Origin: Thermoanaerobaculia bacterium
GTDB taxonomy: Bacteria; Acidobacteriota; Thermoanaerobaculia; Gp7-AA8
Assembly: GCA_035482045.1 (NCBI GenBank)
Contig: DATHRD010000081.1
Span: 6,238-70,237, forward strand
Direction: 5' to 3'
Length of the DNA stretch: 64,000 bases
Shown: positions 10,368 through 53,120 of the stretch, one piece after another
How positions within the stretch are numbered: position 1 is the first letter of the stretch
Layout: each line of letters begins with the position of its first letter
Program-made: the position numbers and the translations under genes
Notes under the pieces: generated by a model
What the model was told of the DNA's origin: nothing
Databases searched by the model: none
The model's input: the letters and a program-made list of their open reading frames with translations, nothing else

Positions 10368-11429
10368 CTACGACCGGCAGCTCGTCTGCGCCTCGGCCAT
10401 GGCCTTCTCCAGATCGCCGCGCGCGCTCGTGCGCGATTGCGGCACGGCCTCGATTGCGGCACGGAATGTCGTCAGCGCTTCATCGCACGCGCCTTTCGCT
10501 GCCAGCACGCGGGCCAGCGTATCAAGGACCAGGTACGAATCGGATCCGTGCTGGGCCACGGCTTTTCTCGCCAGTGACTCGGCCTCGTCGTAACGCTTCG
10601 ACTCGTAGAGAAGCCAGGCCAGATTGTTGAGGGCATCGCGGGACGTGGGATCGAGTGCGAGCGCTTTGCGGAAGGCATCCTCGGCCTCGGCGCGATGGCC
10701 GAGCAGCGTCTCCGCATTGCCGAGGTTTGTCCAGGTCAGAAGAGAGTCAGGATGATGGGAGAGGATCGCGCGATAGGCGTGTGCGGCATCGCCGTACTTG
10801 CCGGCATCCTCGAGGGCCACCGCGGAGCGTAGCGCGGCAGAATCATCGGCCGGATGGATCAGAATCGCCGCGTGGCCGCCGCCTGACCAGGCGTTTTCCA
10901 GCCGGCCGAACGTCGTCCAGCGTCCTTTGCCGTCGCCGAACTGCGTGCGCACGAGACCGGCCGCCGGATCGATTCCGTCCACGACGACGTAGTGGAAAAA
11001 GTCGTATTGGTGGCCGGGCCCATTCACTACCTGCAGCATCAGGATCACCGGCTGTCCCTGCCGCAACTCCCCTTCCACGATGGCCGGAGTCCCGGTGACG
11101 AGCTGCGCGTCGAAGCCCGCCTTGCGTGCCGCGATCAGCAGATCGATCGTGAGCACGCCACCGTGAGTCTTCGGCAGCGTCGCATCCCACGTCTGCATCG
11201 TCGTGGTGTCACCGTAGTGTTGCAGGACGGTCGAGAGCGATCCCGCGCCGCATGACTCGATGCCCCAGCGCTGCTCCGGAACGTTCGGGATTACCGTTGC
11301 AGTGGGGGAGGGGTGTTGGGTTCTGGGGGTGATGGTGATGCAGGAAGTGAGTGTCAGGAGGGCGCTGAGAAGAAGCTGAATGCCCGCGGGAGTCGGGAGT
11401 CGGGGGTCGGGGGTCGGAGCAGGAGCCAA
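10368..11429 (-). CDS. PA2778-like cysteine peptidase (C39-like) fused to TPR repeats, lipoprotein
   Basis: LLSALLTLTSC lipobox; papain/C39-like core (Cys in GIESCGAGS, His in GPGHQYDFFHYVVV); C-terminal TPRs. The ORF's first approx. 50 codons run through a hairpin repeat, so the TTG at 11429 is proposed as the start. Confidence 0.6.
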   Translation of the reverse strand: MAPAPTPDPRLPTPAGIQLLLSALLTLTSCITITPRTQHPSPTATVIPNVPEQRWGIESCGAGSLSTVLQHYGDTTTMQTWDATLPKTHGGVLTIDLLIAARKAGFDAQLVTGTPAIVEGELRQGQPVILMLQVVNGPGHQYDFFHYVVVDGIDPAAGLVRTQFGDGKGRWTTFGRLENAWSGGGHAAILIHPADDSAALRSAVALEDAGKYGDAAHAYRAILSHHPDSLLTWTNLGNAETLLGHRAEAEDAFRKALALDPTSRDALNNLAWLLYESKRYDEAESLARKAVAQHGSDSYLVLDTLARVLAAKGACDEALTTFRAAIEAVPQSRTSARGDLEKAMAEAQTSCRS

Positions 11430-11571
11430 GACGTTCTCTCCGACACCCGACACCCGACCCCCGACTCCCGAAGCACGAATGTTGACTGTTGACGGGAGCC
11501 GGGAGTGGGGAGTTGGAGCTGTAACGATCTCTCCGACCCCCGACCCCCGACCCCCGACTCCCGTCCTCAAC
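11387..11571. repeat. Two adjacent tandem-repeat hairpins, GGGAGTC/GGGGGTC arrays facing GACCCCC/GACTCCC arrays
   Basis: Inverted arrays seen directly; overlaps the 5' end of the peptidase ORF. Confidence 0.8.
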
Positions 11572-16767: not shown

Positions 16768-16840
16768 GAGCGCCGGGAGTAGGGTGTCGGGAGTCGGAGA
16801 ACGCAACATCCATTCTGCCCGACCCCCGACTCCCGCTCCG
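16768..16840. repeat. GGGAGTC-family hairpin at a convergent gene junction
   Basis: gggagcgccgggagtagggtgtcgggagtcggag ... cgacccccgactcccgctcc. Confidence 0.75.
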
Positions 16841-17513: not shown

Positions 17514-19502
17514 ATGGCCGATCACTCGCTGAAGCGCAGTTATTTTTTCTTCGTCCTCTTGCTTCTCACCTCGAGCGTTGCCTTCGCGGATTCTCCGTCG
17601 GGCCGCTATGAGAGCCGGATGGTGTGGGACACACCCATCCATCGAGCTGTGCTGTTCGGTGGCTCGACAGCCATCGACTCCGGGACGAAGATCGCGTACG
17701 AACGGAACGACACATGGGAATGGACCGGGTACCGGTGGCTTGAGGTATACCCCGTTCACAGCCCGTCAAACCGTGCCGCCCATGGGATGATCTTCGACTC
17801 CGTCCGCAACCGGCCGGTGGTTTTCGGCGGCCGTCAGAGCACAATCAATTCCAACGGCACGTCGAGCTTCGTCAATCTCAACGATACATGGAGCTTCGAC
17901 GGAACCGACTGGACGCAGATCCAGACGGCGGACTCCCCCTCCGTCCGAGAGCTGCCCGGCATGGTGTACGACTCCGCGCGCGATCGCATCGTGCTCTTCG
18001 GCGGCATCGTGCAGACCTACACCGGCCCCACCCTGAGAATACTCAACGAAACGCCACTCAAGGATACGTGGGAGTTCGACGGTACCGACTGGCATCAGAT
18101 CCAGGTCGACGGCCCCCTCGTGTACAAGCCGATCCTGGCCTACGACCCCATCCTCAAACAGACCATCATGATCGGCTACAACAACCCGACCGACGTCGTC
18201 ACGGTGATGTATGCCTACGATCCGGTCGGGGGAACCTGGAATCAACTCAAACCCGCCTTACTGCCGGCCTGCGCCAACGAAGGCGCGATGACATTTGACG
18301 GCGCGGACAGCAAGATCCTCTTCACGGGCGCGACCTGCCTCAGCTCGATCAACACGGAGGACACGTATGAGTGGGACGGGTCGAACTGGACGAAGATCAC
18401 CCTGACGTCGTTTGCCGGCCGCTACTACGGGGAGGCCCTGACCTACGACCCCGATCACCAGGTGGTCGTGCTCTTCGGCGGCGCCCAATTGGTCGGCCCT
18501 CTCCTGTCCGCCACGTACACCTACACCAACACGGTCTGGCAGGGCGCGGGCGATCTCGATTTCCCGGCGCCGCGCTCGCTCTTCATGTTCCTTTCGGATC
18601 CCGTTCACAACGTGATCTATCTTTATGGCGGTCTGAACGACGCCACGAGTTTCTTCGATTTCTGGATCTATCAGAACGGGCAGTTTCATCCGAATCTCGA
18701 CGGGACCCAGCCCTCCGCTTGCTCGTTGCCGCTCGGCGTGTTCGACACCGACCGCCAGAAGGTCGTGATGTTCTGTTCGGATAGCTCGACCTGGGAGTTC
18801 GATGGAGCGGCGTGGACCCAGTTCGACTCGTCGAAGACCGCACCTCCCGCGCATGAATGGGGCAGCCTGGCCTATGACCAGAGTCTGAAGAAGACAGTCT
18901 TCTTCGGCGGCTTCGATCCCAGCAACAACAGCTATCTGGATCAGACCTGGACGTACGACGGGACCAGTTGGACGCAGGTCACGAAGAACCCCCCAACATC
19001 GCGCTCTCATGCCTCGATCTGGTACGACCCGACCCTGAAAAAGACCTTGATCTACGGCGGGATCGGCCGGCTCACGTCCACCGATCGCCTGACGCGCTAC
19101 AGCGACATGTGGTCGTTTGACGGCACAGGCTGGACCGCGGTTGTCCCGGCGGCGACGCCGGGCATGCGTTACGGTGCACTGACAGCCATCGATCCGACGA
19201 CGAACCATGCCCTCATCTTCGGCGGGATCAGAGTCGATACCGACCCGACCAACAATCAGGTGCAGGTCTACGCGAACGACATGTGGGACTGGGACGGCAC
19301 GAAATGGACCCAGATCAACACGGCCGCCGTTCCGCCTCCCCGCGAGAACGCCGGCCTGGCCCTTGATCCTCTCCGCAACCAGCTCATCATGTTCGGCGGT
19401 TACAGCGGCTTCTACCTCTCCGACGTCTGGACCCTCGGCAACGGCAGTTGGTCACAGGTGTTTCAGGTCCTGAACCGGCGCCGGGCAGCAGCGGGGCACT
19501 GA
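17514..19502 (+). CDS. Secreted Kelch-repeat beta-propeller protein (approx. 13 repeats)
   Basis: Signal peptide; reiterated DTWEFDG(T/S)DWTQI and VLFGG motifs typical of Kelch blades. Confidence 0.8.
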
Positions 19503-19590
19503 TCGGCTCGGGAGTCGGGGGTCGGGAGTCGGGAGTCGGAACTGGATCGGCTCCGACCCCCGACCCCCGACCCCCGACCCCCGACCAACG
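19503..19590. repeat. GGGAGTC-family hairpin (four or five repeat units per arm)
   Basis: ggctcgggagtcgggggtcgggagtcgggagtcgga-actggat-cggctccgacccccgacccccgacccccgacccccgacc. Confidence 0.85.
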
Positions 19591-19614: not shown

Positions 19615-20883
19615 GTGAGCTCCCTGAAAACTCGAGCGTTTCCGCTGGCCCTGGGGGCGGACCATGGTGGTTTTGAGCTGAAAGAGCAGCTCAAGACTCA
19701 TTTGCGCGAGAAGGGTCATACCGTTCACGATCTCGGTACCCACAGTAAGGACGCTGTCGACTATCCCAGGATCGCCAAAGCCGTCGCCGATCTCGTCGCA
19801 GCGGGGACCGTCCGCTTCGGAATCATGGTGGACGGAGCCGGAATCGGCTCGGCCATGACGGCCAACAAAGTGCCCGGCATCCTGGCTGCAGCCGCCTACA
19901 ATGAGATACTTGCGCGAAACAGCCGCGAGCATAATGATGCGAACGTTCTGACGCTCGGGGCCGGTCAGGTGGATGTCGACACGGCGAAACGGATCGTCGA
20001 GGTCTTTCTCGAAACGGAGTGCACCGCGGATCGGCACCGCGCGCGGGTGAAGATGATCCGCGAGATGGATAAAGGAGGGCGTGGGGTGAGCTCGAGGGGC
20101 AGCGACTTGTCAGCGGAGGACACTGCTCGGATCGCCGACCGGGTGCGGCAGCTCCTCCAGCAGGGCGGTGCCTCCACGCTGCCCGCCACGAACGTCCTTC
20201 CCCCGGAGAAGCTGGTCAAGCTGATCGACCACACGCTGCTCAAGCCCGAAGCAACCGCCGAGGACATCGAGAAACTCTGTCAGGAGGCTTCGCGGTTCGG
20301 CTTCTATTCCGTGTGCGTGAATCCGACATGGGTGGCCAAGGCGAAATCCCTCCTTCGCGGGACCTCAGTGAAGGTCTGCGCCGTGGTCGGCTTCCCGCTC
20401 GGCGCGCAGTCCCCGGAGATCAAGACCCTCGAGGCGCGCCGCGCTCTACGGGAAGGGGCGCAGGAAATCGACATGGTGATCAACATCGGCGCGCTGAAGA
20501 GCAAAGACGACCGTCTGGTGGCGCGCGACATCCGCGGAGTGGTCGAGGCCTGCGACGAAGCGCGTGCCGTCTCCAAAGTCATCCTGGAGACCGCGCTGCT
20601 CAACGACGAGGAAAAGGTCCGAGGATGCCAGCTTGCCATGAAGGCGCGTGCCGGCTTTGTGAAGACCTCGACCGGCTTCTCGAAGGCGGGCGCCACCGTC
20701 GAGGACATCGCCCTGATGGCGCGCACCGTGGCTCCCCGTAAGCTCGGCGTGAAAGCTTCCGGCGGAGTACGCACCTACGCCGACGTATTGAAGATGGTGG
20801 AAGCGGGCGCCACCCGCGTGGGCAGCTCCAATAGTGTCAAGATTCTGGAAGAGGCCACGCAATTGGCCTCGGGGAAGAGGTGA
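19615..20883 (+). CDS. Fused ribose-5-phosphate isomerase B (RpiB/LacAB family) and deoxyribose-phosphate aldolase (DeoC), with an amphipathic inter-domain helix; candidate microcompartment cargo enzyme
   Basis: N-terminal RpiB motifs ([31 protein letters not shown]); linker [19 protein letters not shown]; C-terminal DeoC motifs ([18 protein letters not shown], Schiff-base Lys in VKTSTGF). Confidence 0.85.
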
Positions 20884-20886
20884 ACG

Positions 20887-21510
20887 GTGGCTGAGCTTCG
20901 CTGCTATGTATTCATCGACAGCCTGCAGCCCCAGTTCGCTTCGTTCCTCGGAACGATCGCTCAGGGATTTCTTCCGGTGCCGGGCCAGGCCTCGCTGTTC
21001 GTCGAGGTTTCGCCGGGCATGGAGATCATGAGCGTGACCGACGTCGCCCTCAAGGCCACCGACGTCCGGCCGGGGATGATGATCATCGAGCGCCTCTACG
21101 GCATGCTCGAACTGCACTCAGATTCACAGGCCGATGTGCGCCAGGCCGGCCAGGCCATCCTCGATTCTCTGAATCTGAAGGAAACAGACCGCATCAAGCC
21201 CGAGATCACCTCCAGCCAGGTGATCCGCAACATCTCCGACTACCATACGCAGCTCATCAACAGGACCCGTCACGGTGACATGATCGTTCCGGGGCAGACC
21301 CTGTATGTGCTGGAGGTGGCGCCCGCGGGCTACGCGGCGATTGCGGCCAACGAGGCGGAGAAGGCGGCCAACATCAATGTCCTCGAGGTGCGGGCCTTTG
21401 GAAGCTTCGGGCGCGTTTACCTCGGCGGCGAAGAACGCGACATCGACGTCGGATACCGGGCTGCGGAGCAGGCCATTGCATCGATTGCCGGACGCGCCGG
21501 AAGGCCGTGA
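20887..21510 (+). CDS. BMC-T shell protein (tandem BMC domains)
   Basis: Two BMC-fold segments, each ending in the alpha/beta pattern ([13 protein letters not shown]... and [48 protein letters not shown]). Confidence 0.65.
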
Positions 21511-21700
21511 AAAGCAAACCAGAAACCAGAAAGCAGAAACGAGAAAACTAGAACCAGAAATAGAGAACTAGAAACCAGAGAGCAGAAATGAGCTAGAAGC
21601 AGAATCCAGAAGGCAGATCGCTGAACGGGGTTTTTCTCCGACTCCCGACTCCCGACTCCCGACCCCCGCCTTCTGGTTTCTAGTTTCCGATTTTGAGGAG
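21511..21700. repeat. Purine/A-rich degenerate tandem repeat (AGAAACCAGAA units) followed by a (GACTCCC)3 block and a reverse-complement arm, inside the microcompartment operon
   Basis: approx. 105 nt of AGAAAC-type repeats, then cggggttttt, (gactccc)3, and ccttctggtttctagtttc complementary to the upstream repeat; strong GAGGAGG RBS immediately after. Confidence 0.8.
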
Positions 21701-21705
21701 GACGC

Positions 21706-22017
21706 ATGACAGACGCACTAGGCATGATCGAAACGAGGTCTTTTCCGGCGGTAGTGGAAGCCGCCGACGCGGCGGTTAAGGCTGCGCGAGTGGATCTCGT
21801 CTCCTATGAGAAGACGGGTGGCGGATACACAACGATCGTCGTCCGCGGAGATGTTGCGGCGGTGAAAGCGGCGTGCGATGCGGCGCAGACCGCGGCAGGA
21901 CGGGTTGGCGACGTCGTGACCGTGCACGTGATCGCCCGGCCGCACGACCAGGTCGACGTCATCATGCCGCTCGGCCGAAAGCAGGCGGCGCCGCAGGGTC
22001 ACGAGAAGAAGAAGTAA
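21706..22017 (+). CDS. BMC-H shell protein (PduA/EutM/CcmK-like hexamer)
   Basis: ALGMIETRSFPAVVEAADAAVKAARVDLVSYEKTGGGYTTIVVRGDVAAVKAA is the canonical BMC domain; GAGGAGG RBS. Confidence 0.9.
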   Translation: MTDALGMIETRSFPAVVEAADAAVKAARVDLVSYEKTGGGYTTIVVRGDVAAVKAACDAAQTAAGRVGDVVTVHVIARPHDQVDVIMPLGRKQAAPQGHEKKK

Positions 22018-22032
22018 CAGGACCTACGTCCA

Positions 22033-22320
22033 ATGCAACTCGCGAGAGTCGTGGGAACCGTCGTGGCCACGCTTAAGGAGGAGAGCATGCAGGGGATCAA
22101 ACTCCTGGTCGTGCGTCCTCTCGATGAAGAAGGCCGCGAGAGCGGCAATGCGATCGTGTCGGCTGACGCGGTGGGAGCCGGTCCGGGCGAGGTCGTGCTG
22201 ATCGCGGCCGGAAGCTCGGCCCGGCAAACCGTGGTCACGGACAAGCGTCCCGTCGATTCGGTGGTCATGGCCATCGTCGACAGCTGGCATGTTGCCGATA
22301 CCGTGAAGTACAAGAAGTGA
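22033..22320 (+). CDS. BMC-P vertex protein (EutN/PduN/CcmL family), paralog 1
   Basis: MQLARVVGTVVAT...KLLVVRPLD...VVLIAAGSSAR, approx. 95 aa pentamer-type fold. Confidence 0.85.
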   Translation: MQLARVVGTVVATLKEESMQGIKLLVVRPLDEEGRESGNAIVSADAVGAGPGEVVLIAAGSSARQTVVTDKRPVDSVVMAIVDSWHVADTVKYKK

Positions 22321-22327
22321 GCCGCCG

Positions 22328-23782
22328 ATGACGCGCCTGACCGATCAGGAAATCGACGAGATCGCGCGGCGCATCGCCGCCGAGATGGGCGGCCGCGGCG
22401 CGGAACCTGCCCGGAGCGGAGCCGAAGGCCCTCCGCCCGTCCAGTCTCACGAGATGAGTCTCGGGGTTTTTGCCACGGTATCCGACGCCGTGCGCGCGGC
22501 GACCACCGCACAGAAAGAGTTCGTCGCGCTCAAGCTCGCCCATCGAGCCCGCATCCTCGAAGCGATGCGCCAGGCGATGCGCGAGAACGAATCGGTTCTC
22601 GCGAAAGCGGCGTTTGAAGAGACCGGCCTTGGACGCTACGAAGACAAGGTCATCAAGAATCGACTCGTCACGGAAAGGACCCCGGGCCTGGAAGATCTCG
22701 TTCCCGTGGCCACGACGGGGGACAACGGTCTCACGCTCGTCGAGCCCGCGCCGTTCGGTGTGATCGGCGCCATCACGCCCGTCACCAACCCCACATCCAC
22801 GATCATCTGCAACTCGATCGGGATGCTGGCCGCCGGCAACAGCGTCGTGTTCAACGTCCACCCGTACGCGAAGAACTGCTGCATGCAGACCATCGCCCTG
22901 CTCAACAAGGCCATCGCCGGCGCCGGCGGCCCTGCCAATGTCATCACCGGCGTGGCCAACCCGACTATCGAGTCGGCGCAGGAGCTGATGAAGCATCCAG
23001 GCGTGCGTTTGGTGGTCGTGACGGGTGGGGGAGAAGTCGTCAAGGTTGCCATGAGCAGTGGCAAGCGGGCCATCTGTGCCGGCCCTGGGAATCCGCCGGT
23101 GGTCGTGGACGAGACGGCGGACATCGACAGAGCGGCGCGCGACATCATCCTCGGCGCCTCCACCGACAACAACATCATCTGCACCGACGAGAAGGAAACC
23201 ATCGCCGTCTCGTCGATCGCCGACGCCCTCATCGCCTCGATGGGACGGCAAGGGGCGGTCGTTCTTCCGCGGGAGCGGCTCGCCGAGTTGGAGAAAGTCG
23301 TGTTCACGGAGATGAAGGGCCCGAGGCAGAAGGCCTGGATCGACAAGAACCTCGTCGGAAAGAACGCCTCCGCGATTCTGGCCAGGATGGGGATGAACGT
23401 TCCCGACGCGGTCCGCCTGGTCGTCGTCGAGGTCGATGAGAGCCATCCGTTGCTCTGGACCGAACAGATGATGCCGGTCATGCCCGTCGTTCGAGTCTCC
23501 GACGCGAACCGTGCCATCGATCTGGCGGTCCAGTTGGAAGGCGGGAACCGTCACACCGCGGTGATGCATTCGAAGGATCTCGACAATCTCAGCCGCATGG
23601 CCAAGGCGTGCGACTGCTCGATCTTCGTCAAGAACGGCCGCTCGCAGGCCGGCCTCGGGCTCGATGGCGAGGGCTATTGCTCCTTCACGATCGCCAGCCC
23701 CACCGGCGACGGCATGACCGGACCGCGATCATTCTCACGCTGGCGCCGCTGCGTGCTCGTCGGTCACTTCAGGATCACGTGA
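22328..23782 (+). CDS. CoA-acylating aldehyde dehydrogenase (PduP/EutE-like) with an N-terminal encapsulation peptide
   Basis: N-terminal amphipathic helix TDQEIDEIARRIAAEM plus Gly/Pro linker; ALDH core with catalytic Cys (NNIICTDE); C-terminal FTIASPTGDG motif. Confidence 0.9.
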   Translation: MTRLTDQEIDEIARRIAAEMGGRGAEPARSGAEGPPPVQSHEMSLGVFATVSDAVRAATTAQKEFVALKLAHRARILEAMRQAMRENESVLAKAAFEETGLGRYEDKVIKNRLVTERTPGLEDLVPVATTGDNGLTLVEPAPFGVIGAITPVTNPTSTIICNSIGMLAAGNSVVFNVHPYAKNCCMQTIALLNKAIAGAGGPANVITGVANPTIESAQELMKHPGVRLVVVTGGGEVVKVAMSSGKRAICAGPGNPPVVVDETADIDRAARDIILGASTDNNIICTDEKETIAVSSIADALIASMGRQGAVVLPRERLAELEKVVFTEMKGPRQKAWIDKNLVGKNASAILARMGMNVPDAVRLVVVEVDESHPLLWTEQMMPVMPVVRVSDANRAIDLAVQLEGGNRHTAVMHSKDLDNLSRMAKACDCSIFVKNGRSQAGLGLDGEGYCSFTIASPTGDGMTGPRSFSRWRRCVLVGHFRIT

Positions 23783-24396
23783 TGAGGAAGACGTCCGCTT
23801 TCGCCGTCCTCGATTTCTCCGACATTCCGTCGGGCGTCTGCGCGGTCGATTCCATTCTAAAGAAAGCGCCCATCGCATTCGTGCGGGCCGGAACGGTGAC
23901 GCACGGCCGTTATCTGGTCGTGTTCGGCGGTTCGACCGCCGCCACCGCCGAGTCGCTGGCCGAGGCGCTGGCGACGAGCGGCAGCGCGATCATCGATCAC
24001 AGCTTCCTGCCGGATGCGCATCCGGTACTCTTCGACGCGGCGTTCGGGGCGCGCCGGAAATCGACGGGCTCGCTTCTCATCATCGAGACCGAGACCGCCT
24101 CCTCGATCGTTCGCGCCGTGGAAGCGGCTCTCAAAGGAACGCCGGTCGAGCTGATCGAGATGCGCCTTGCCGACGCGGGGTTGGCGGGCAAGGGAATCGC
24201 GCTGATGGCCGGCTCGCTCCACGACGTCGAAGCGGCAGCGGCCCTGGCGGCCGAAGGAACCCGAGACGCTCCATCGCCCCGAGGCTTCTCGCATCGGCTC
24301 ATCGCAGCGCCGCACGAGATCATGGAGCGCGAAATCGCAGCGGTGATGCGATTCGACATCGCCCCTCTCCTCGATCTGGATGGGGAGGCCGGCTGA
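23782..24396 (+). CDS. BMC-T shell protein (tandem BMC domains), second paralog
   Basis: ATG overlaps the AldDH stop by 1 nt; two BMC-like segments (FAVLDFSDIPSGVCAVDSILKKAP... and LLIIETETASSIVRAVEAALKGTPVELIEMRLADAGLAGKGIALMAGSLHDVEAAAALA). Confidence 0.65.
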   Translation: MRKTSAFAVLDFSDIPSGVCAVDSILKKAPIAFVRAGTVTHGRYLVVFGGSTAATAESLAEALATSGSAIIDHSFLPDAHPVLFDAAFGARRKSTGSLLIIETETASSIVRAVEAALKGTPVELIEMRLADAGLAGKGIALMAGSLHDVEAAAALAAEGTRDAPSPRGFSHRLIAAPHEIMEREIAAVMRFDIAPLLDLDGEAG

Positions 24397-24665
24397 TGCT
24401 TCTGGGCCGCGTCATCGGTCAGGTCGTACCGTGCGTGGTGACGCCCGGACTCGAGGGCGTGCCGATGCTCATCGTGCAGCCGCTGGACAAGATGCTGAAG
24501 CCGAAAGGAAAGGCCATCGTCGCCGCCGATGCCACGCGCATGGCCGGCCCGGGCGAGCTGGTCTCGTACGAAGGCGGGCGTGAGGCGGCCATGTCTCTCG
24601 ATCCGGCGTTCGTACCGATCGATCACGCCATCCTGGCGATCGTCGACGGGGTCAACATCTCGTGA
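24396..24665 (+). CDS. BMC-P vertex protein, paralog 2
   Basis: MLLGRVIGQVVPCVV...PMLIVQPLD; 1-nt overlap with the upstream stop. Confidence 0.85.
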   Translation: MLLGRVIGQVVPCVVTPGLEGVPMLIVQPLDKMLKPKGKAIVAADATRMAGPGELVSYEGGREAAMSLDPAFVPIDHAILAIVDGVNIS

Positions 24666-24931
24666 TCCTCGGACGCGTCATCGGCGAGATCCACGGGACG
24701 ATCAAGCACCCGTTCTACGAAGGCAAGAAGCTCCTGGTGATCGAGAAGACCTCACCCTCGGGCGACCCGACCGGCGACTACCTCATCGCCGCCGACTCGG
24801 TCGGCGCCGGCGCCCACGAGCGCGTTCTCGTACTCGACGAAGGCAATGGCGCGCGGCAGGTGTTCGACTCGAAGGACGGCCCAGTCCGCTCCGTCGTTGT
24901 GGGGATCATCGACGATGTTGTGAGTGGCTGA
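24662..24931 (+). CDS. BMC-P vertex protein, paralog 3
   Basis: MILGRVIGEIHGTIK...KLLVIEK; GTGA start/stop overlap. Confidence 0.85.
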   Translation: MILGRVIGEIHGTIKHPFYEGKKLLVIEKTSPSGDPTGDYLIAADSVGAGAHERVLVLDEGNGARQVFDSKDGPVRSVVVGIIDDVVSG

Positions 24932-25206: not shown

Positions 25207-25576
25207 AGGCTGTGCTTCGGATCGGCTGCGCGATGAGTGCCAGATCGACGGTCGAGACGAGGTCGTCGTCGATCTCCTCGGGTTTGATGACCCGTACCGA
25301 CGGGAGCGCGCGCCTGACCGTCTCCACAGCCGCCGCGATGACGATGATGGCGACGTTTTGTCCGTGCAGCGCCTCGATCCTGCGAACCAGGGCAATGGCG
25401 GTGAGCACCGGCAGATCGATGACAACGCCCTCGACGTTCGGCGCTCCGGAGATCCGTTCCATGGTGGCGTCGTCGACGATCTTGCTGACCATGTACCCGG
25501 CCGTGCCAAGCAGGGTGGCAGCGCGAGACGCGCCCGGGTCAGCACGCAGGAGCAGATGCGGCGTGAGTTGCGTCAT
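25205..25576 (-). CDS. Receiver-like (CheY-fold) single-domain protein, degenerate
   Basis: VVIDLPVLTAI and VRVIKP resemble receiver D and K positions, but the N-terminal acidic pair is missing. Confidence 0.45.
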   Translation of the reverse strand: MTQLTPHLLLRADPGASRAATLLGTAGYMVSKIVDDATMERISGAPNVEGVVIDLPVLTAIALVRRIEALHGQNVAIIVIAAAVETVRRALPSVRVIKPEEIDDDLVSTVDLALIAQPIRSTA

Positions 25577-26000
25577 TCGAGGCCTCGTTTCTGTAGGTCG
25601 TGCGCAGCAGGCGGCTGTGATCGATCAGGGTTTGAATGCGGGCGATGATCTCCATCGGCTCCTGCGACTTCGTGATGAAGCCATCCGCGCCGAGCTCTTC
25701 GGTCATGGCGGCCAGTTCGTTCGGAGAACGGCCGGAGAAGAGGACGAGCAGGGCGCTGGTCCGGAGCAGACGCCTGAGCCCCTGGCGGAGTGCGGCGGTG
25801 CTGGAGAGCGCGGGGAGGCTGACGTCGAGCAGGACGACATCCGGGTCGGCTTCTCGCAGGATCAACGGCAGCGTGATCATCGAGTCGTGCATGACCACGT
25901 CGATACCGCTGATCTCGAGCAGCGCCTTCATCCCTTCCAGGAGATCGTGCTGGTCATCGACGATCAGCACGCGGCCGCGTGTTTCGTTGCGGGCGCTCAT
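25539..26000 (-). CDS. Single-domain response regulator (receiver only)
   Basis: LIVDDQ, VVLLDVSLP (phospho-Asp), LFSGRS, FITKS conserved receiver positions. Confidence 0.7.
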   Translation of the reverse strand: MSARNETRGRVLIVDDQHDLLEGMKALLEISGIDVVMHDSMITLPLILREADPDVVLLDVSLPALSSTAALRQGLRRLLRTSALLVLFSGRSPNELAAMTEELGADGFITKSQEPMEIIARIQTLIDHSRLLRTTYRNEASNDATHAASAPAC

Positions 26001-26434
26001 CGAGACCCCGCCTGAACGCGCCGCACGAGTCCGGCCACAGCCTGGGGATGCAGCGGTTTGATGAGGTAGTCGTCGATGCCGTAGTGCAGCTTCGCCTCGT
26101 TCTGATAGCGCGTGTGCTTGTAGATCGCCGTCATGATGGCGATGTGCGGACGGTAGTCGGGGTCGATGTGCCGGATGAAGCGGGAGATCTCGAATCCGTG
26201 CATCTCCGGGAGCAGCCCGTCGAGCAGGATGAGGTCCGGCCGGCTCTCGGAGGCGACGCGAATGGCCTCGAAGCCGCTGCTGGCCGTGAACGGAGCGATG
26301 TGCAAGGCCCGGAACTGCTCGATCAGCGACCAGCGCAGCTTCCGCTCGTCTTCGACGATCAGTACCGTCGGCAATGCGGCATCGTCGGTTGGGTGGTACG
26401 GAAGGTCAGGAACTGCGATCTCGGCAATGCTCAT
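25997..26434 (-). CDS. Single-domain response regulator (receiver only)
   Basis: LIVEDE, LILLDGLLP, IMTA, YLIKP receiver positions; 4-nt overlap with the downstream receiver gene. Confidence 0.7.
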   Translation of the reverse strand: MSIAEIAVPDLPYHPTDDAALPTVLIVEDERKLRWSLIEQFRALHIAPFTASSGFEAIRVASESRPDLILLDGLLPEMHGFEISRFIRHIDPDYRPHIAIMTAIYKHTRYQNEAKLHYGIDDYLIKPLHPQAVAGLVRRVQAGSR

Positions 26435-37314: not shown

Positions 37315-37400
37315 GCGGGGGTCGGGAGTCGGGAGTCGGGTGTCGTAGAGGAGATGGCCGCGGGGCCATCGATCTCTTCTCCGGCTCCCCACTCCCGACC
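37315..37400. repeat. GGGAGTC-family hairpin
   Basis: gggggtcgggagtcgggagtcgggtgtcg ... ggctccccactcccgacccccacac. Confidence 0.8.
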
Positions 37401-47523: not shown

Positions 47524-48274
47524 TCTGCTGGCCGAACGATCCCGCCTCGGCGGCGGCCCAGGAGCCGGCATCGCCATCTCCATCCTCCTGCATGGCGCGA
47601 TTGCCGCAGGCATCATCTACGCTGCCATGCACGCCGCCGCCCCTCAGGAGATGTCGATGCTGAACATCCGGTTCGCCGCGCCTGTAGTGAGCCGGGAGCC
47701 GGGAGTCGTAGCTCCCACCCCCGTAGCTCCCACCCCCGTAGCTCCCACCCCCCACGCCCCACCCCCCACTCCCAGCAAGCTCACCATCCCCGAGCCCGTG
47801 GCTGAGCCTCCCAAGCCGGTCGTGAAAAGCGAGCCGAAGACCGTTCCTCTTTCCTCATTCGGACAATCGTCGAAAAAGGGCTCCGAAAAACCTCCCACCC
47901 CCCACGCCCCACCCCCCACTCCCCAAGCCACCGCGACCCCAGGCGTGGTCGGCGGAGTCAACATCCCGGCCGGCGCCACCGGAGTGACGGGGATCGAAGG
48001 CGACTTCCCGTACACGATCTACATCGACCGGATGAAGATGCTCATCGGCCAGCACTGGTTGCGGCCGCAGTCCGTCACCCATGACATCACGGCGACGATC
48101 CACTTCGTCGTCGAACGCGACGGCACCATTCGCGACGCGAGAAATGAAATCCCGAGCGGCGACGGCACCTTCGACCGGGCGGCGCTCCGTGCCGTTCTCG
48201 AAGCGTCGCCCCTTCCGCCTCTTCCCTTCGGCTATAACGGCACGTACCTTGGAGTACGTCTTACATTCCGATGA
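47504..48274 (+). CDS. tolA: TolA/TonB-family energy-transducer protein (Pro-rich linker, TonB_C-like domain)
   Basis: N-terminal TM segment, APTPV/PPPTP repeats, C-terminal TonB-C-like fold; its position between tolR and tolB suggests TolA. Confidence 0.6.
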   Translation: MEDRIGDLLAERSRLGGGPGAGIAISILLHGAIAAGIIYAAMHAAAPQEMSMLNIRFAAPVVSREPGVVAPTPVAPTPVAPTPHAPPPTPSKLTIPEPVAEPPKPVVKSEPKTVPLSSFGQSSKKGSEKPPTPHAPPPTPQATATPGVVGGVNIPAGATGVTGIEGDFPYTIYIDRMKMLIGQHWLRPQSVTHDITATIHFVVERDGTIRDARNEIPSGDGTFDRAALRAVLEASPLPPLPFGYNGTYLGVRLTFR

Positions 48275-53027: not shown

Positions 53028-53120
53028 CCCGGGAGTCGGGAATCGGGTGTCGGGGGTCGGTGTCATGATGCGCAGCCACTCCGATGCCCGAACCCCGGTT
53101 AGCGACTCCCGCGCAGTCTA
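53028..53120. repeat. GGGAGTC-family imperfect hairpin
   Basis: gggagtcgggaatcgggtgtcgggggtcgg ... ccgatgcccgaaccccggttagcgactcccg. Confidence 0.65.

What the first reader, a model, noticed from the sequence alone, without database searches (positions are those of the whole stretch)
19615..20883. RpiB-DeoC fusion carrying a putative internal encapsulation peptide
A single ORF joins a complete RpiB/LacAB-type sugar-phosphate isomerase to a complete class I deoxyribose-phosphate aldolase. The approx. 45-aa linker contains an amphipathic helix ([19 protein letters not shown]) flanked by Gly/Ser/Arg-rich flexible segments. That is the architecture of BMC encapsulation peptides, but placed between domains rather than at a terminus. 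The fusion implies substrate channelling of pentose and deoxypentose phosphates inside the shell; RpiB may convert a related sugar phosphate to the DeoC substrate, or vice versa.
Basis: partly seen in the sequence, partly recalled or inferred. Interest (0 to 1): 0.6.

Follow-up and report, generated by a model that had tools for sequence, protein, structure and literature searches.

The report
Known RpiB–DERA fusion of SPU microcompartment
The gene is a real fusion of a sugar-phosphate isomerase-like domain and a deoxyribose-phosphate aldolase that heads a bacterial microcompartment operon, but this fusion and its possible internal targeting helix are already published, so this is one more ordinary example.

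Summary
ORF 19615-20883 (+, 422 aa) carries a full-length RpiB/LacAB domain (aa 12-148) and a DeoC/DERA domain (aa ~200-418). They are joined by a ~44-aa linker whose core (aa 166-182) is a conserved amphipathic helix between low-confidence, indel-rich segments.

The ORF heads a collinear 8-gene cassette: fusion, CcmP-like BMC-T, BMC-H, BMC-P, aldehyde dehydrogenase, BMC-T, BMC-P, BMC-P. This matches the published description of the sugar-phosphate-utilising (SPU) microcompartment, best fitting subtype SPU3.

It is not new. Axen 2014 noted the aldolase-isomerase fusion. Dwyer 2024 reported the RPI-DERA chimera in 20 SPU3 loci and proposed that its "intraenzyme helix" acts as an encapsulation peptide.

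The substrate-channelling idea is not supported. The RpiB catalytic Cys is Asp here (Thr68 is Ala), as in 62 of the 66 related RPI domains I surveyed. A published SPU RPI has negligible ribose-5-phosphate isomerase activity.

Small additions from this work:
- This Acidobacteriota-type clade keeps only the first helix of a longer DERA N-terminal extension.
- Two related fusions, and many split RPI/DERA pairs, have no shell gene within 10 kb.

Verdict: already known, low interest.

The parts
19615..20883 (+). RPI-DERA chimera gene (422 aa, GTG start), first gene of the BMC operon
   Evidence: ORF. Pfam PF02502 plus PF01791. Conserved as a single ORF in all 240 listed clusters.
19648..20058 (+). 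RpiB/LacAB-like domain (aa 12-148). Asp73 replaces the catalytic Cys and Ala75 replaces Thr. The His and phosphate-binding Arg/His residues are retained.
   Evidence: Pfam. Alignment to E. coli RpiB 1nn4. Site pattern D-H-D-A-H-N-R-H-R in 62 of 66 related RPI domains. These positions are invariant or nearly invariant among 119 fusion homologues.
20071..20202 (+). Inter-domain linker (aa ~153-196): flexible Gly/Ser/Arg segment, helix, then a Gly/Ala/Pro/Thr segment
   Evidence: AF2 pLDDT is below 50 at 154-164 and 184-191. Columns are variable and rich in indels. No PDB DERA or RpiB chain covers this stretch.
20110..20160 (+). Conserved amphipathic helix (aa 166-182, [17 protein letters not shown]). 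It is EP-like, with motif [ST]xxD[LIV]x[RK]IAxRVx[EQ]LL.
   Evidence: AF2 helix at 167-182. Hydrophobic moment 0.56-0.59. The stripe 170/173/174/177/180/181 is mostly apolar across 119 homologues (174 is Ala with some Thr/Ser), and D169 and R176 are nearly invariant. It matches the first helix of the longer linkers in distant fusions.
20203..20868 (+). Class I deoxyribose-5-phosphate aldolase (DERA) domain with Asp286, Lys350 and Lys380 intact
   Evidence: 267 bits to DERA 8qps. The motifs EIDMVIN, FVKTSTG and GVKASGG are aligned and invariant in alignment A1.
20887..21510 (+). BMC-T, double-stacking type (CcmP-like tandem BMC domains)
   Evidence: 266 bits to CcmP 5lsr/4ht5 and 245 bits to HO BMC-T. 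Pfam BMC.
21706..22017 (+). BMC-H hexamer shell protein, preceded by a GAGGAGG ribosome-binding site
   Evidence: Pfam PF00936 E=2.3e-28. Sequence.
22033..22320 (+). BMC-P pentamer protein 1
   Evidence: Pfam PF03319 E=1.5e-29.
22328..23782 (+). Aldehyde dehydrogenase. It has an N-terminal EP-like helix (aa ~4-20, LTDQEIDEIARRIAAEM) followed by a Gly/Pro/Ala linker before the Aldedh domain, which starts at aa 49.
   Evidence: Pfam PF00171 at aa 49-438. Sequence. The paper predicts N-terminal EPs on SPU AldDHs other than SPU6.
23782..24396 (+). BMC-T, single-layer type (PduT / HO BMC-T1-like). Its ATG overlaps the AldDH stop codon by one base.
   Evidence: Two BMC domains by Pfam. 74 bits to 5dih and 66 bits to PduT 3n79.
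24396..24665 (+). BMC-P pentamer protein 2
   Evidence: Pfam PF03319 E=8.2e-18.
24662..24931 (+). BMC-P pentamer protein 3, the last gene of the cassette
   Evidence: Pfam PF03319 E=5.6e-23. Downstream genes lie on the minus strand (response regulators, a long ORF that looks like a methionyl-tRNA synthetase, read by eye).

Best explanation
The ORF is the RPI-DERA chimera of a sugar-phosphate-utilising (SPU) bacterial microcompartment. The locus best fits subtype SPU3 and comes from an Acidobacteriota (Thermoanaerobaculia-like) genome.

Proposed mechanism, with the status of each step:
1. Deoxyribose 5-phosphate enters the shell. This is inferred from the literature.
2. [quoted passage not shown] The catalytic Asp/Lys/Lys are shown intact here, and activity was shown experimentally only for an SPU6 homologue.
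3. The co-encoded aldehyde dehydrogenase, which carries an EP-like N-terminal helix, converts the toxic acetaldehyde to acetyl-CoA. This is inferred.
4. The RPI-like domain is not a canonical ribose-5-phosphate isomerase, because it has Asp/Ala in place of Cys/Thr. It most likely serves as DERA's obligatory partner, here hard-wired at 1:1. A stable RPI-DERA complex was shown experimentally for the split SPU6 proteins.
5. The linker helix (aa 166-182) is the retained first helix of the N-terminal extension that SPU-type DERAs carry. It most likely acts as an internal encapsulation peptide or cargo-coalescence element. This is inferred from anatomy.
6. Both domains belong to oligomeric families, so the fusion would be multivalent and could nucleate the enzyme core. 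This is inference.
For: Shell context: the cassette holds BMC-H, three BMC-P, a CcmP-like BMC-T, a PduT-like BMC-T and an AldDH. The same 8-gene order recurs from Acidobacteriota through Lentisphaerae, Verrucomicrobiota and Gammaproteobacteria to Neomarinimicrobiota. Of 22 fused loci, 20 have shell genes next door.

Literature:
- Axen 2014 reported the fusion in Marinimicrobia.
- Dwyer 2024 described the SPU3 chimera in 20 loci, traced the 'linker' to the DERA extension and proposed it as an EP. They also reported that RPI loses its own N-terminal EP in the chimera, that the DERA N-extension causes aggregation, that DERA is active on dR5P, that RPI is inactive on R5P, and that RPI and DERA form a complex.

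EP-like anatomy: helix at 167-182 between segments with pLDDT below 50, hydrophobic moment about 2 sd above the protein mean, and a conserved apolar stripe with variable, indel-rich flanks.

The helix profile finds the first helix of longer linkers in distant fusions, for example L012 at 21.5 bits and L017 at 21.2 bits.

Stand-alone SPU-type DERAs begin with classic EP-like helices such as MLNPQDLQRLVEIITEEVMM.

No N-terminal extension is possible on the RPI domain here, because the ORF opens only 11 aa upstream of the domain.
Against: - EP function is untested for any SPU protein.
- The shuffle test for amphipathicity is only modest (p about 0.05), and ordinary surface helices of the DERA barrel score higher.
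- The helix profile does not significantly match the AldDH N-terminal helix of the same locus (E=27) or the N-terminal helices of stand-alone DERAs.
- Linear alignments instead pair it with the second helix of stand-alone extensions, so homology to a bona fide terminal EP rests on intermediates.
- Two fusions (L023, L060) and 24 split RPI/DERA pairs carrying the same extensions have no shell gene within 10 kb.
- The active-site residues of the RPI domain are invariant or nearly so. This fits a functional ligand site better than a pure scaffold.
- The SPU3 subtype call rests on the published description, not on the authors' HMM classifier.
Confidence: 0.75

Rival explanations
1. The linker helix is not a shell-targeting peptide. 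Instead it is a tether or oligomerisation element, for example packing on DERA or RPI, or zipping fusion oligomers together. Encapsulation would then be mediated by other cargo such as the AldDH N-terminal helix.
For: The same extension family occurs in RPI/DERA loci with no shell gene within 10 kb. [quoted passage not shown] D169 and R176 on the helix are nearly invariant, which suggests a specific partner. pTM is 0.55 and no model coordinates were available, so packing could not be examined.
Against: In this clade the helix is isolated between very low-confidence, poorly conserved segments, so it is not integrated into either fold. The published Delta-N DERA still binds RPI, so the extension is not needed for that complex, and the extension drives aggregation as known EPs do. 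No non-BMC DERA in the PDB has such a helix.
Confidence: 0.18
2. The fusion is a bifunctional enzyme that channels a pentose or deoxypentose phosphate from an active RpiB isomerase to DERA, or the reverse, inside the shell.
For: Both folds are complete. The RPI ligand-binding residues (D16, H17, H106, N107, R140, H141, R144) and the substituted D73/A75 are invariant or nearly so across 119 homologues, and the pattern recurs in 62 of 66 related loci. This argues for a selected active site rather than decay. RpiB-family enzymes are known to be promiscuous (cited in Axen 2014).
Against: The catalytic Cys66 is Asp and Thr68 is Ala. The SPU6 RPI showed negligible R5P isomerase activity, alone or in complex, and the complex did not improve DERA Km or Vmax. 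2-Deoxyribose 5-phosphate has no 2-OH, so it cannot undergo aldose-ketose isomerisation (established chemistry). The paper notes that no pathway links R5P or Ru5P to DERA without a transketolase, and none is in the 8-gene cassette.
Confidence: 0.07
3. The single ORF is an artefact: a frameshift, a mis-assembly or a lost stop codon joining two adjacent genes.
For: In many related loci RPI and DERA are adjacent separate genes (44 of 66 loci).
Against: A 100% identical protein exists on an independent record, and all 240 listed clusters are 390-501 aa long with both domains. 22 species-level genomes from several phyla encode the fusion in one stop-free frame. Axen 2014 and Dwyer 2024 both report it.
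Confidence: 0.01

Closest known systems
SPU3-type sugar-phosphate-utilising BMC locus with RPI-DERA chimera (Sutter 2021, PMC8217296; Dwyer 2024, PMC11585597)
   Same: - Fused PF02502-PF01791 protein with RPI at the N-terminus and DERA at the C-terminus.
- No N-terminal EP on RPI.
- A helix between the domains that derives from the DERA extension.
- AldDH with an N-terminal EP-like helix.
- A BMC-P triplet, a CcmP-like BMC-Tdp, a BMC-Ts and one BMC-H.
- No PTAC.
- Asp at the RpiB catalytic Cys position.
   Different: The published representative is a Verrucomicrobia protein. This window belongs to a Thermoanaerobaculia-like clade that is 58-62% identical to the Verrucomicrobiota fusion set. 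Its linker is even shorter: it lacks the GPIEVGPHQATLLA segment of the Verrucomicrobiota fusions, and also the Cys-rich and AGAxRI segments of the longer extensions. The authors' HMM-based subtype assignment was not run here.
Split SPU6 DERA and RPI of Chloroflexi bacterium GWB2_54_36 (experimentally characterised, Dwyer 2024)
   Same: Same two protein subfamilies, including RPI with Asp for Cys and DERA with intact D/K/K. Same shell context. The two proteins form a stable complex in roughly equal amounts, which the fusion makes covalent.
   Different: In SPU6 they are separate genes. Each carries its own N-terminal extension (about 70 aa on DERA: a helix plus two strands; a helix plus a linker of about 75 aa on RPI). 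The AldDH EP is C-terminal in SPU6.
Canonical terminal encapsulation peptides (for example the PduP and PduD N-termini of the Pdu microcompartment)
   Same: A helix of about 17 residues with an i, i+3/4, i+7 apolar stripe. It is separated from the catalytic fold by a poorly conserved flexible linker and is absent from non-BMC homologues.
   Different: It lies between two folded domains rather than at a terminus. No binding or targeting data exist. The comparison with Pdu peptides rests on my own recollection of their sequences (used), not on a database test.
E. coli RpiB / AlsB ribose-5-phosphate isomerase B (PDB 1nn4, 2vvr)
   Same: Same fold over the full length (101 bits). Asp9, His10, His99, Asn100, Arg133, His134 and Arg137 equivalents are conserved.
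   Different: Cys66 is Asp73 and Thr68 is Ala75. The domain is fused to DERA and encoded in a shell operon. The closest tested relative lacks R5P isomerase activity.

Membership tests
SPU bacterial microcompartment locus (subtype SPU3) | DeoC-family class I aldolase (PF01791) encoded with shell genes | tested here: met
   PF01791 at aa 201-399. Shell genes start 4 nt downstream.
SPU bacterial microcompartment locus (subtype SPU3) | RpiB-family protein (PF02502) with Asp in place of the catalytic Cys | tested here: met
   PF02502 E=1.9e-48. Asp73 aligns to E. coli Cys66. The paper states this for all SPU RPIs.
SPU bacterial microcompartment locus (subtype SPU3) | Aldehyde dehydrogenase core enzyme with an N-terminal EP | tested here: met
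   PF00171 at aa 49-438, with a 48-aa N-terminal extension that starts with the helix-like stretch LTDQEIDEIARRIAAEM. The helix itself was judged by eye and by hydrophobic moment 0.40, and was not modelled.
SPU bacterial microcompartment locus (subtype SPU3) | Shell complement: BMC-H, a BMC-P triplet, BMC-Ts and a CcmP-like BMC-Tdp; no PTAC | tested here: met
   No PF06130 match in the ORFs flanking the cassette.
SPU bacterial microcompartment locus (subtype SPU3) | RPI-DERA chimera (reported only for SPU3) | tested here: met
   Single ORF with both domains.
SPU bacterial microcompartment locus (subtype SPU3) | Assignment by the authors' shell-protein colour HMMs / BMC Caller | not testable with these tools
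   The classifier and the paper's supplementary tables are not available.
BMC encapsulation peptide | Short amphipathic alpha-helix (about 15-20 aa) | tested here: met
   AF2 helix at 167-182. Hydrophobic moment 0.56-0.59 against a mean of 0.285; shuffle p about 0.05. Conserved apolar stripe.
BMC encapsulation peptide | Joined to the catalytic domain by a poorly conserved flexible linker | tested here: met
   pLDDT below 50 at 154-164 and 184-191. High-entropy columns with indels.
BMC encapsulation peptide | Absent from homologues not associated with BMCs | tested here: inconclusive
   No solved DERA covers aa 150-199, and plain DERAs of 220-250 aa lack it. However, extension-bearing fusions and pairs occur with no shell gene within 10 kb (L023, L060 and 24 split loci). 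Whole genomes were not searchable.
BMC encapsulation peptide | N- or C-terminal position | tested here: not met
   The helix is internal, at aa 166-182 of 422, between two folded domains.
BMC encapsulation peptide | Necessary and/or sufficient for cargo targeting; binds shell or core partners | not testable with these tools
   This needs an experiment or multimer modelling. The structure tool models one chain at a time and rejects non-native sequences.
Ribose-5-phosphate isomerase B (EC 5.3.1.6) | RpiB/LacAB fold | tested here: met
   Pfam profile positions 2-138 of 138 are covered. 123 bits to 3ph3 and 101 bits to 1nn4.
Ribose-5-phosphate isomerase B (EC 5.3.1.6) | Catalytic base Cys66 and Thr68 (E. 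coli numbering) | tested here: not met
   Asp73 and Ala75 occupy these positions. D73 and A75 are invariant in alignment A1.
Ribose-5-phosphate isomerase B (EC 5.3.1.6) | R5P to Ru5P isomerase activity | not testable with these tools
   Published as negligible for the SPU6 homologue. Never assayed for a chimera.
Deoxyribose-5-phosphate aldolase, class I (EC 4.1.2.4) | Schiff-base Lys (FxKTSTG), second Lys (GxKxxGG) and Asp (E. coli K167, K201, D102) | tested here: met
   K350, K380 and D286 align with the corresponding motifs of solved DERAs, including the K-to-L variant 6msw. They are invariant in A1. The E. coli numbering is taken from the paper and from my own knowledge of the motifs.

The most novel reading that the evidence does not exclude
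The RPI-like domain may not be a dead scaffold. It could be an active isomerase with an Asp base acting on something other than ribose 5-phosphate, for example a short-chain sugar phosphate such as DERA's product glyceraldehyde 3-phosphate (a TPI-like step) or a tetrose phosphate. The fusion would then be a true two-step enzyme.

Two things prompt the idea. The D-H-D-A-H-N-R-H-R site is found in 62 of 66 loci from many phyla. The paper also notes that RPI is less frequent in SPU4, the subtype where a TPI carrying an EP is reported.

This is speculation. No substrate was tested here or in the literature I read.
Probability: 0.12. Interest if true: 0.55.

Novelty: already known. Interest (0 to 1): 0.15.

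Why it matters
As it stands this is a routine annotation result: one more SPU-type microcompartment operon, in an Acidobacteriota-like genome, with the chimera already described in 2014 and 2024.

It has some practical value. This clade offers a very compact version of the system: 8 genes in 5.3 kb, with a linker of about 44 aa that holds a single 17-residue helix. That makes it a convenient construct for testing whether an encapsulation peptide can work from an internal position.

The invariant Asp/Ala active site of the RPI domain also sharpens an open question that the literature raises but does not settle: what is this domain for?

Tried and rejected
1. I tested whether the linker helix and the AldDH N-terminal helix share a locus-specific EP motif. 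They look alike by eye ([17 protein letters not shown] against LTDQEIDEIARRIAAEM). A profile of the helix searched against all 584 window ORFs scored the AldDH N-terminus at E=27, which is not significant, so I dropped it as evidence.

2. I looked for direct homology of the helix to the N-terminal EP helix of stand-alone DERAs. The profile gives no significant hit there. MAFFT and HMMER linear alignments pair the helix with the second helix (xDRxRxxVxAGA) instead. I resolved this only through long-linker fusions, where the first helix is hit at 11-21 bits.

3. I wanted to see whether the helix packs on DERA or RPI in the AF2 model. The tool returns no coordinates or PAE, and pTM is only 0.55, so this could not be done.

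4. The paper's supplementary tables (SPU3 composition, EP list) are not held.

6. I considered a frameshift or assembly artefact and rejected it.

7. The sigma-70 promoter scan of the operon found nothing.
Full report
**1. Observation**

The ORF 19615..20883 (+, GTG start, 422 aa) is real.
- Pfam places a full-length LacAB_rpiB domain at aa 12-148 (profile positions 2-138 of 138, E=1.9e-48) and a DeoC/LacD aldolase domain at aa 201-399 (E=9.4e-17).
- Against solved structures, aa 10-148 align with RpiB enzymes (123 bits to 3ph3, 101 bits to E. coli 1nn4).
- Residues ~200-415 align with deoxyribose-phosphate aldolases (267 bits to 8qps).
- No solved DERA or RpiB chain covers aa 150-199.
- The most upstream start codon of the ORF leaves only 11 aa before the RPI domain, so there is no room for an N-terminal extension.

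**2. Is the fusion genuine?**

Yes.
- A 100%-identical protein and all 120 listed clusters at 79-96% identity carry both Pfam domains at 411-453 aa.
- A second search, seeded with a 59%-identical Verrucomicrobiota fusion, listed another 120 clusters that all carry both domains.
- In the 50%-identity representative library, many of the best 150 DERA relatives are 400-560 aa long with DERA at the C-terminus.
- In one-genome-per-species contigs I fetched 80 loci and annotated them by ORF calling plus BLASTP with the window's proteins:
  - 22 loci have RPI and DERA in one stop-free frame.
  - 44 have them as separate genes, mostly adjacent.
  - 14 have DERA only.
- The nearest named relatives are Thermoanaerobaculia / Acidobacteriota MAGs.

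**3. Context**

The fusion is the first gene of a compact same-strand cassette:

| Coordinates | Gene | Evidence |
|---|---|---|
| 19615-20883 | RPI-DERA fusion | |
| 20887-21510 | CcmP-like double-stacking BMC-T (266 bits to CcmP) | |
| 21706-22017 | BMC-H | |
| 22033-22320 | BMC-P | |
| 22328-23782 | Aldehyde dehydrogenase | |
| 23782-24396 | PduT / HO-T1-like BMC-T | |
| 24396-24665 | BMC-P | |
| 24662-24931 | BMC-P | |

- Downstream genes are on the other strand. Two are response regulators by Pfam. Two longer ORFs look like a methionyl-tRNA synthetase and a PilT-like ATPase, read by eye from the translations.
- Upstream lies a Kelch-repeat protein.
- There is no PduL-type phosphotransacylase.
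- The same eight-gene order recurs in loci labelled Acidobacteriota, Lentisphaerae, Verrucomicrobiota, Gammaproteobacteria and Neomarinimicrobiota.

**4. What the literature already says**

- Axen et al. 2014 defined the SPU (sugar-phosphate utilising) metabolosome. [quoted passage not shown]
- Sutter et al. 2021 expanded SPU to more than 280 loci in seven subtypes. They placed CcmP-like BMC-Tdp proteins in SPU2/SPU3 (PMC8217296).
- Dwyer et al. 2024 (PMC11585597) reported the following:
  - An RPI-DERA fusion occurs in 20 SPU3 loci.
  - All SPU DERAs carry an N-terminal extension, an amphipathic helix plus two strands, that is absent from non-BMC DERAs and causes aggregation.
  - The apparent 'linker' of the chimera is that DERA element.
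  - The chimera lacks the N-terminal EP that split RPIs have.
  - SPU6 DERA is active on deoxyribose 5-phosphate.
  - SPU RPIs all have Asp in place of catalytic Cys66.
  - The SPU6 RPI has negligible R5P isomerase activity.
  - RPI and DERA form a stable complex in roughly equal amounts that does not change DERA kinetics.

**5. The linker in this protein**

AlphaFold2 was run on a 119-sequence alignment and gave mean pLDDT 87.6 and pTM 0.55. It predicts:
- the last RPI helix at 139-152;
- a segment with pLDDT below 50 at 154-164;
- a helix at 167-182 (block pLDDT 58-77);
- a second low-confidence segment at 184-191;
- the start of DERA at about 197.

The helix has a hydrophobic moment of 0.56-0.59. 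The protein-wide mean is 0.285 (sd 0.139), and 4.6% of shuffles reach the observed value. This is amphipathic but not extreme, and barrel surface helices score higher.

Across 119 fusions the motif [ST]xxD[LIV]x[RK]IAxRVx[EQ]LL is conserved. It has an apolar stripe at positions 170/173/174/177/180/181, and D169 and R176 are nearly invariant. The flanks are high-entropy and carry indels. This is the anatomy expected of an encapsulation peptide, apart from its internal position.

**6. Origin of the helix**

More distant fusions and stand-alone DERAs have longer extensions. These consist of a first helix, a Cys-rich stretch (often CxxCxxxCxxxC), a second helix with an AGAxRI motif, and then the barrel.
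- A profile of the window-clade helix hits the first helix of long-linker fusions: L012 at 21.5 bits, L017 at 21.2, L013 at 15.6, L009 at 14.7 and L021 at 11.7.
- In those proteins the helix ends 46-64 aa before DERA. In the window clade it ends 15-20 aa before DERA.
- This clade has therefore kept the first, EP-like helix and lost the rest of the extension.
- The profile does not significantly match stand-alone DERA N-termini.
- Linear alignments pair it with their second helix. The link to bona fide terminal EPs is therefore indirect.
- The AldDH of this locus begins with a similar-looking helix (LTDQEIDEIARRIAAEM) followed by a Gly/Pro/Ala linker, but the similarity is not statistically significant.

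**7. Catalytic sites**

- DERA: Asp286 (EIDMVIN), Lys350 (FVKTSTG) and Lys380 (GVKASGG) are intact and invariant.
- RPI: the equivalents of E. coli Asp9, His10, His99, Asn100, Arg133, His134 and Arg137 are conserved, but Cys66 is Asp73 and Thr68 is Ala75.
- The pattern D-H-D-A-H-N-R-H-R is found in 62 of 66 RPI domains in the fetched loci, whether fused or split, and whether or not shell genes lie next door. These positions are invariant or nearly so among 119 fusions.
- This confirms the published statement about SPU RPIs. The strength of the conservation also argues that the site is still under selection, for binding or for an unknown reaction.
2-Deoxyribose 5-phosphate has no 2-hydroxyl to isomerise. 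The paper notes that no pathway links R5P or Ru5P to DERA without a transketolase, and the tested homologue is inactive on R5P.

**8.

Of the 22 fused loci, 20 have shell genes adjacent. Two of those 20 (L011, L013) are cut by the contig end just after the first shell genes.

L023 (an Acidobacteriaceae MAG) and L060 (a Terriglobia MAG) have none within +-10 kb, and the fusion appears to stand alone there. In addition, 24 split RPI/DERA loci lack nearby shell genes, mostly in Pyrinomonadaceae and Bryobacterales.

These may be satellite enzyme loci. Sutter 2021 describe EP-bearing DeoC genes located away from HO shell loci. Alternatively, the extension may have a role outside microcompartments. 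Whole genomes could not be searched, so this stays open and lowers confidence in the EP function somewhat.

**9. Verdict**

The EP-like internal helix is supported by anatomy and is already proposed in print. The channelling idea is not supported.

The thing is an already known kind of object: the RPI-DERA chimera of an SPU3-type microcompartment. Interest is low. The modest additions from this work are the minimal-linker variant, the near-universal Asp/Ala RPI site, and the orphan fusions.

Noticed in passing
window 19507-19590 (between the Kelch gene stop at 19502 and the fusion start at 19615): There is a long, nearly perfect hairpin built from heptamer repeats: (GGGAGTC)n on one arm and (CCCCGAC)n on the other. 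Its folding energy is -74.2 kcal/mol with z=-7.5 against shuffles. It could be a terminator or insulator, or a regulatory structure ahead of the BMC operon.
   Followed up: partly
window 11385-11565, 16779-16796, 19507-19585, 21639-21670, 37321-37399, 47691-47708, 53035-53052: The same CGAC(T/C/A)CC heptamer repeat recurs at seven or more sites. There are 24 matches with up to 2 mismatches, against 0.04 expected. At several sites copies face each other on opposite strands, as in REP-like hairpin elements. One copy sits inside the BMC operon just upstream of BMC-H.
   Followed up: partly
window 21511-21705 (between BMC-Tdp and BMC-H): This is an unusually A-rich, low-GC intergenic stretch of degenerate CAGAAA/CCAGAA repeats. 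It is followed by the GACTCCC repeats and a strong GAGGAGG ribosome-binding site before the BMC-H ATG. The distal TTCTGGTTTCTAG could pair with the repeats. Its function is unknown.
   Followed up: no
L012, L014, L017, L022, L023, L037, L039, L053, L055, L060, L065 and others; protein P0144 aa 36-48: The N-terminal extension of stand-alone and long-linker SPU-type DERAs contains a Cys-rich motif, often CxxCxxxCxxxC, between the first helix and an AGAxRI segment. There is a weak sub-threshold Fer4_6 match in L060 (E=0.047). The 2024 paper does not mention cysteines in the extension. This may be a metal or Fe-S site. It is absent from the window's clade.
   Followed up: partly
L023:9441-11003, L060:9767-11464; also L014, L034, L036, L039, L046, L056, L073, L075: RPI-DERA fusions (2 loci) and split RPI/DERA pairs (24 loci) carry the same Asp-type RPI and the extended DERA, yet have no BMC-H, BMC-P or BMC-T gene within +-10 kb. 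They are mostly from Terriglobia, Pyrinomonadaceae and Bryobacterales. They could be satellite loci or a use of these proteins outside microcompartments.
   Followed up: partly
L060:9767-9990, L023:9441-9620, L014:7220-7345: Ahead of the RPI domain in some non-window relatives there is a conserved N-terminal motif, roughly (V/I)T(S/A)xD(V/L)...GEL(R/T)(L/I)..GAIIT..ARE.A...G(V/I). It has a weak match to the C-terminal end of Pfam PDU_like (PF15953, E=0.056). The window's fusion lacks it.
   Followed up: no
window 22337-22387 (AldDH aa 4-20): The aldehyde dehydrogenase starts with an EP-like helix, LTDQEIDEIARRIAAEM, followed by a Gly/Pro/Ala-rich spacer of about 25 aa before the Aldedh domain. 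It looks like the fusion's linker helix by eye but not statistically (E=27).
   Followed up: yes
window 25539-26434 (minus strand): Two tandem stand-alone response-regulator receiver genes (153 and 145 aa) converge on the end of the BMC cassette. Neither produced a BLASTP match (E<=1e-8) in any of the 14 loci tabulated, so a regulatory link to the operon is not indicated.
   Followed up: partly
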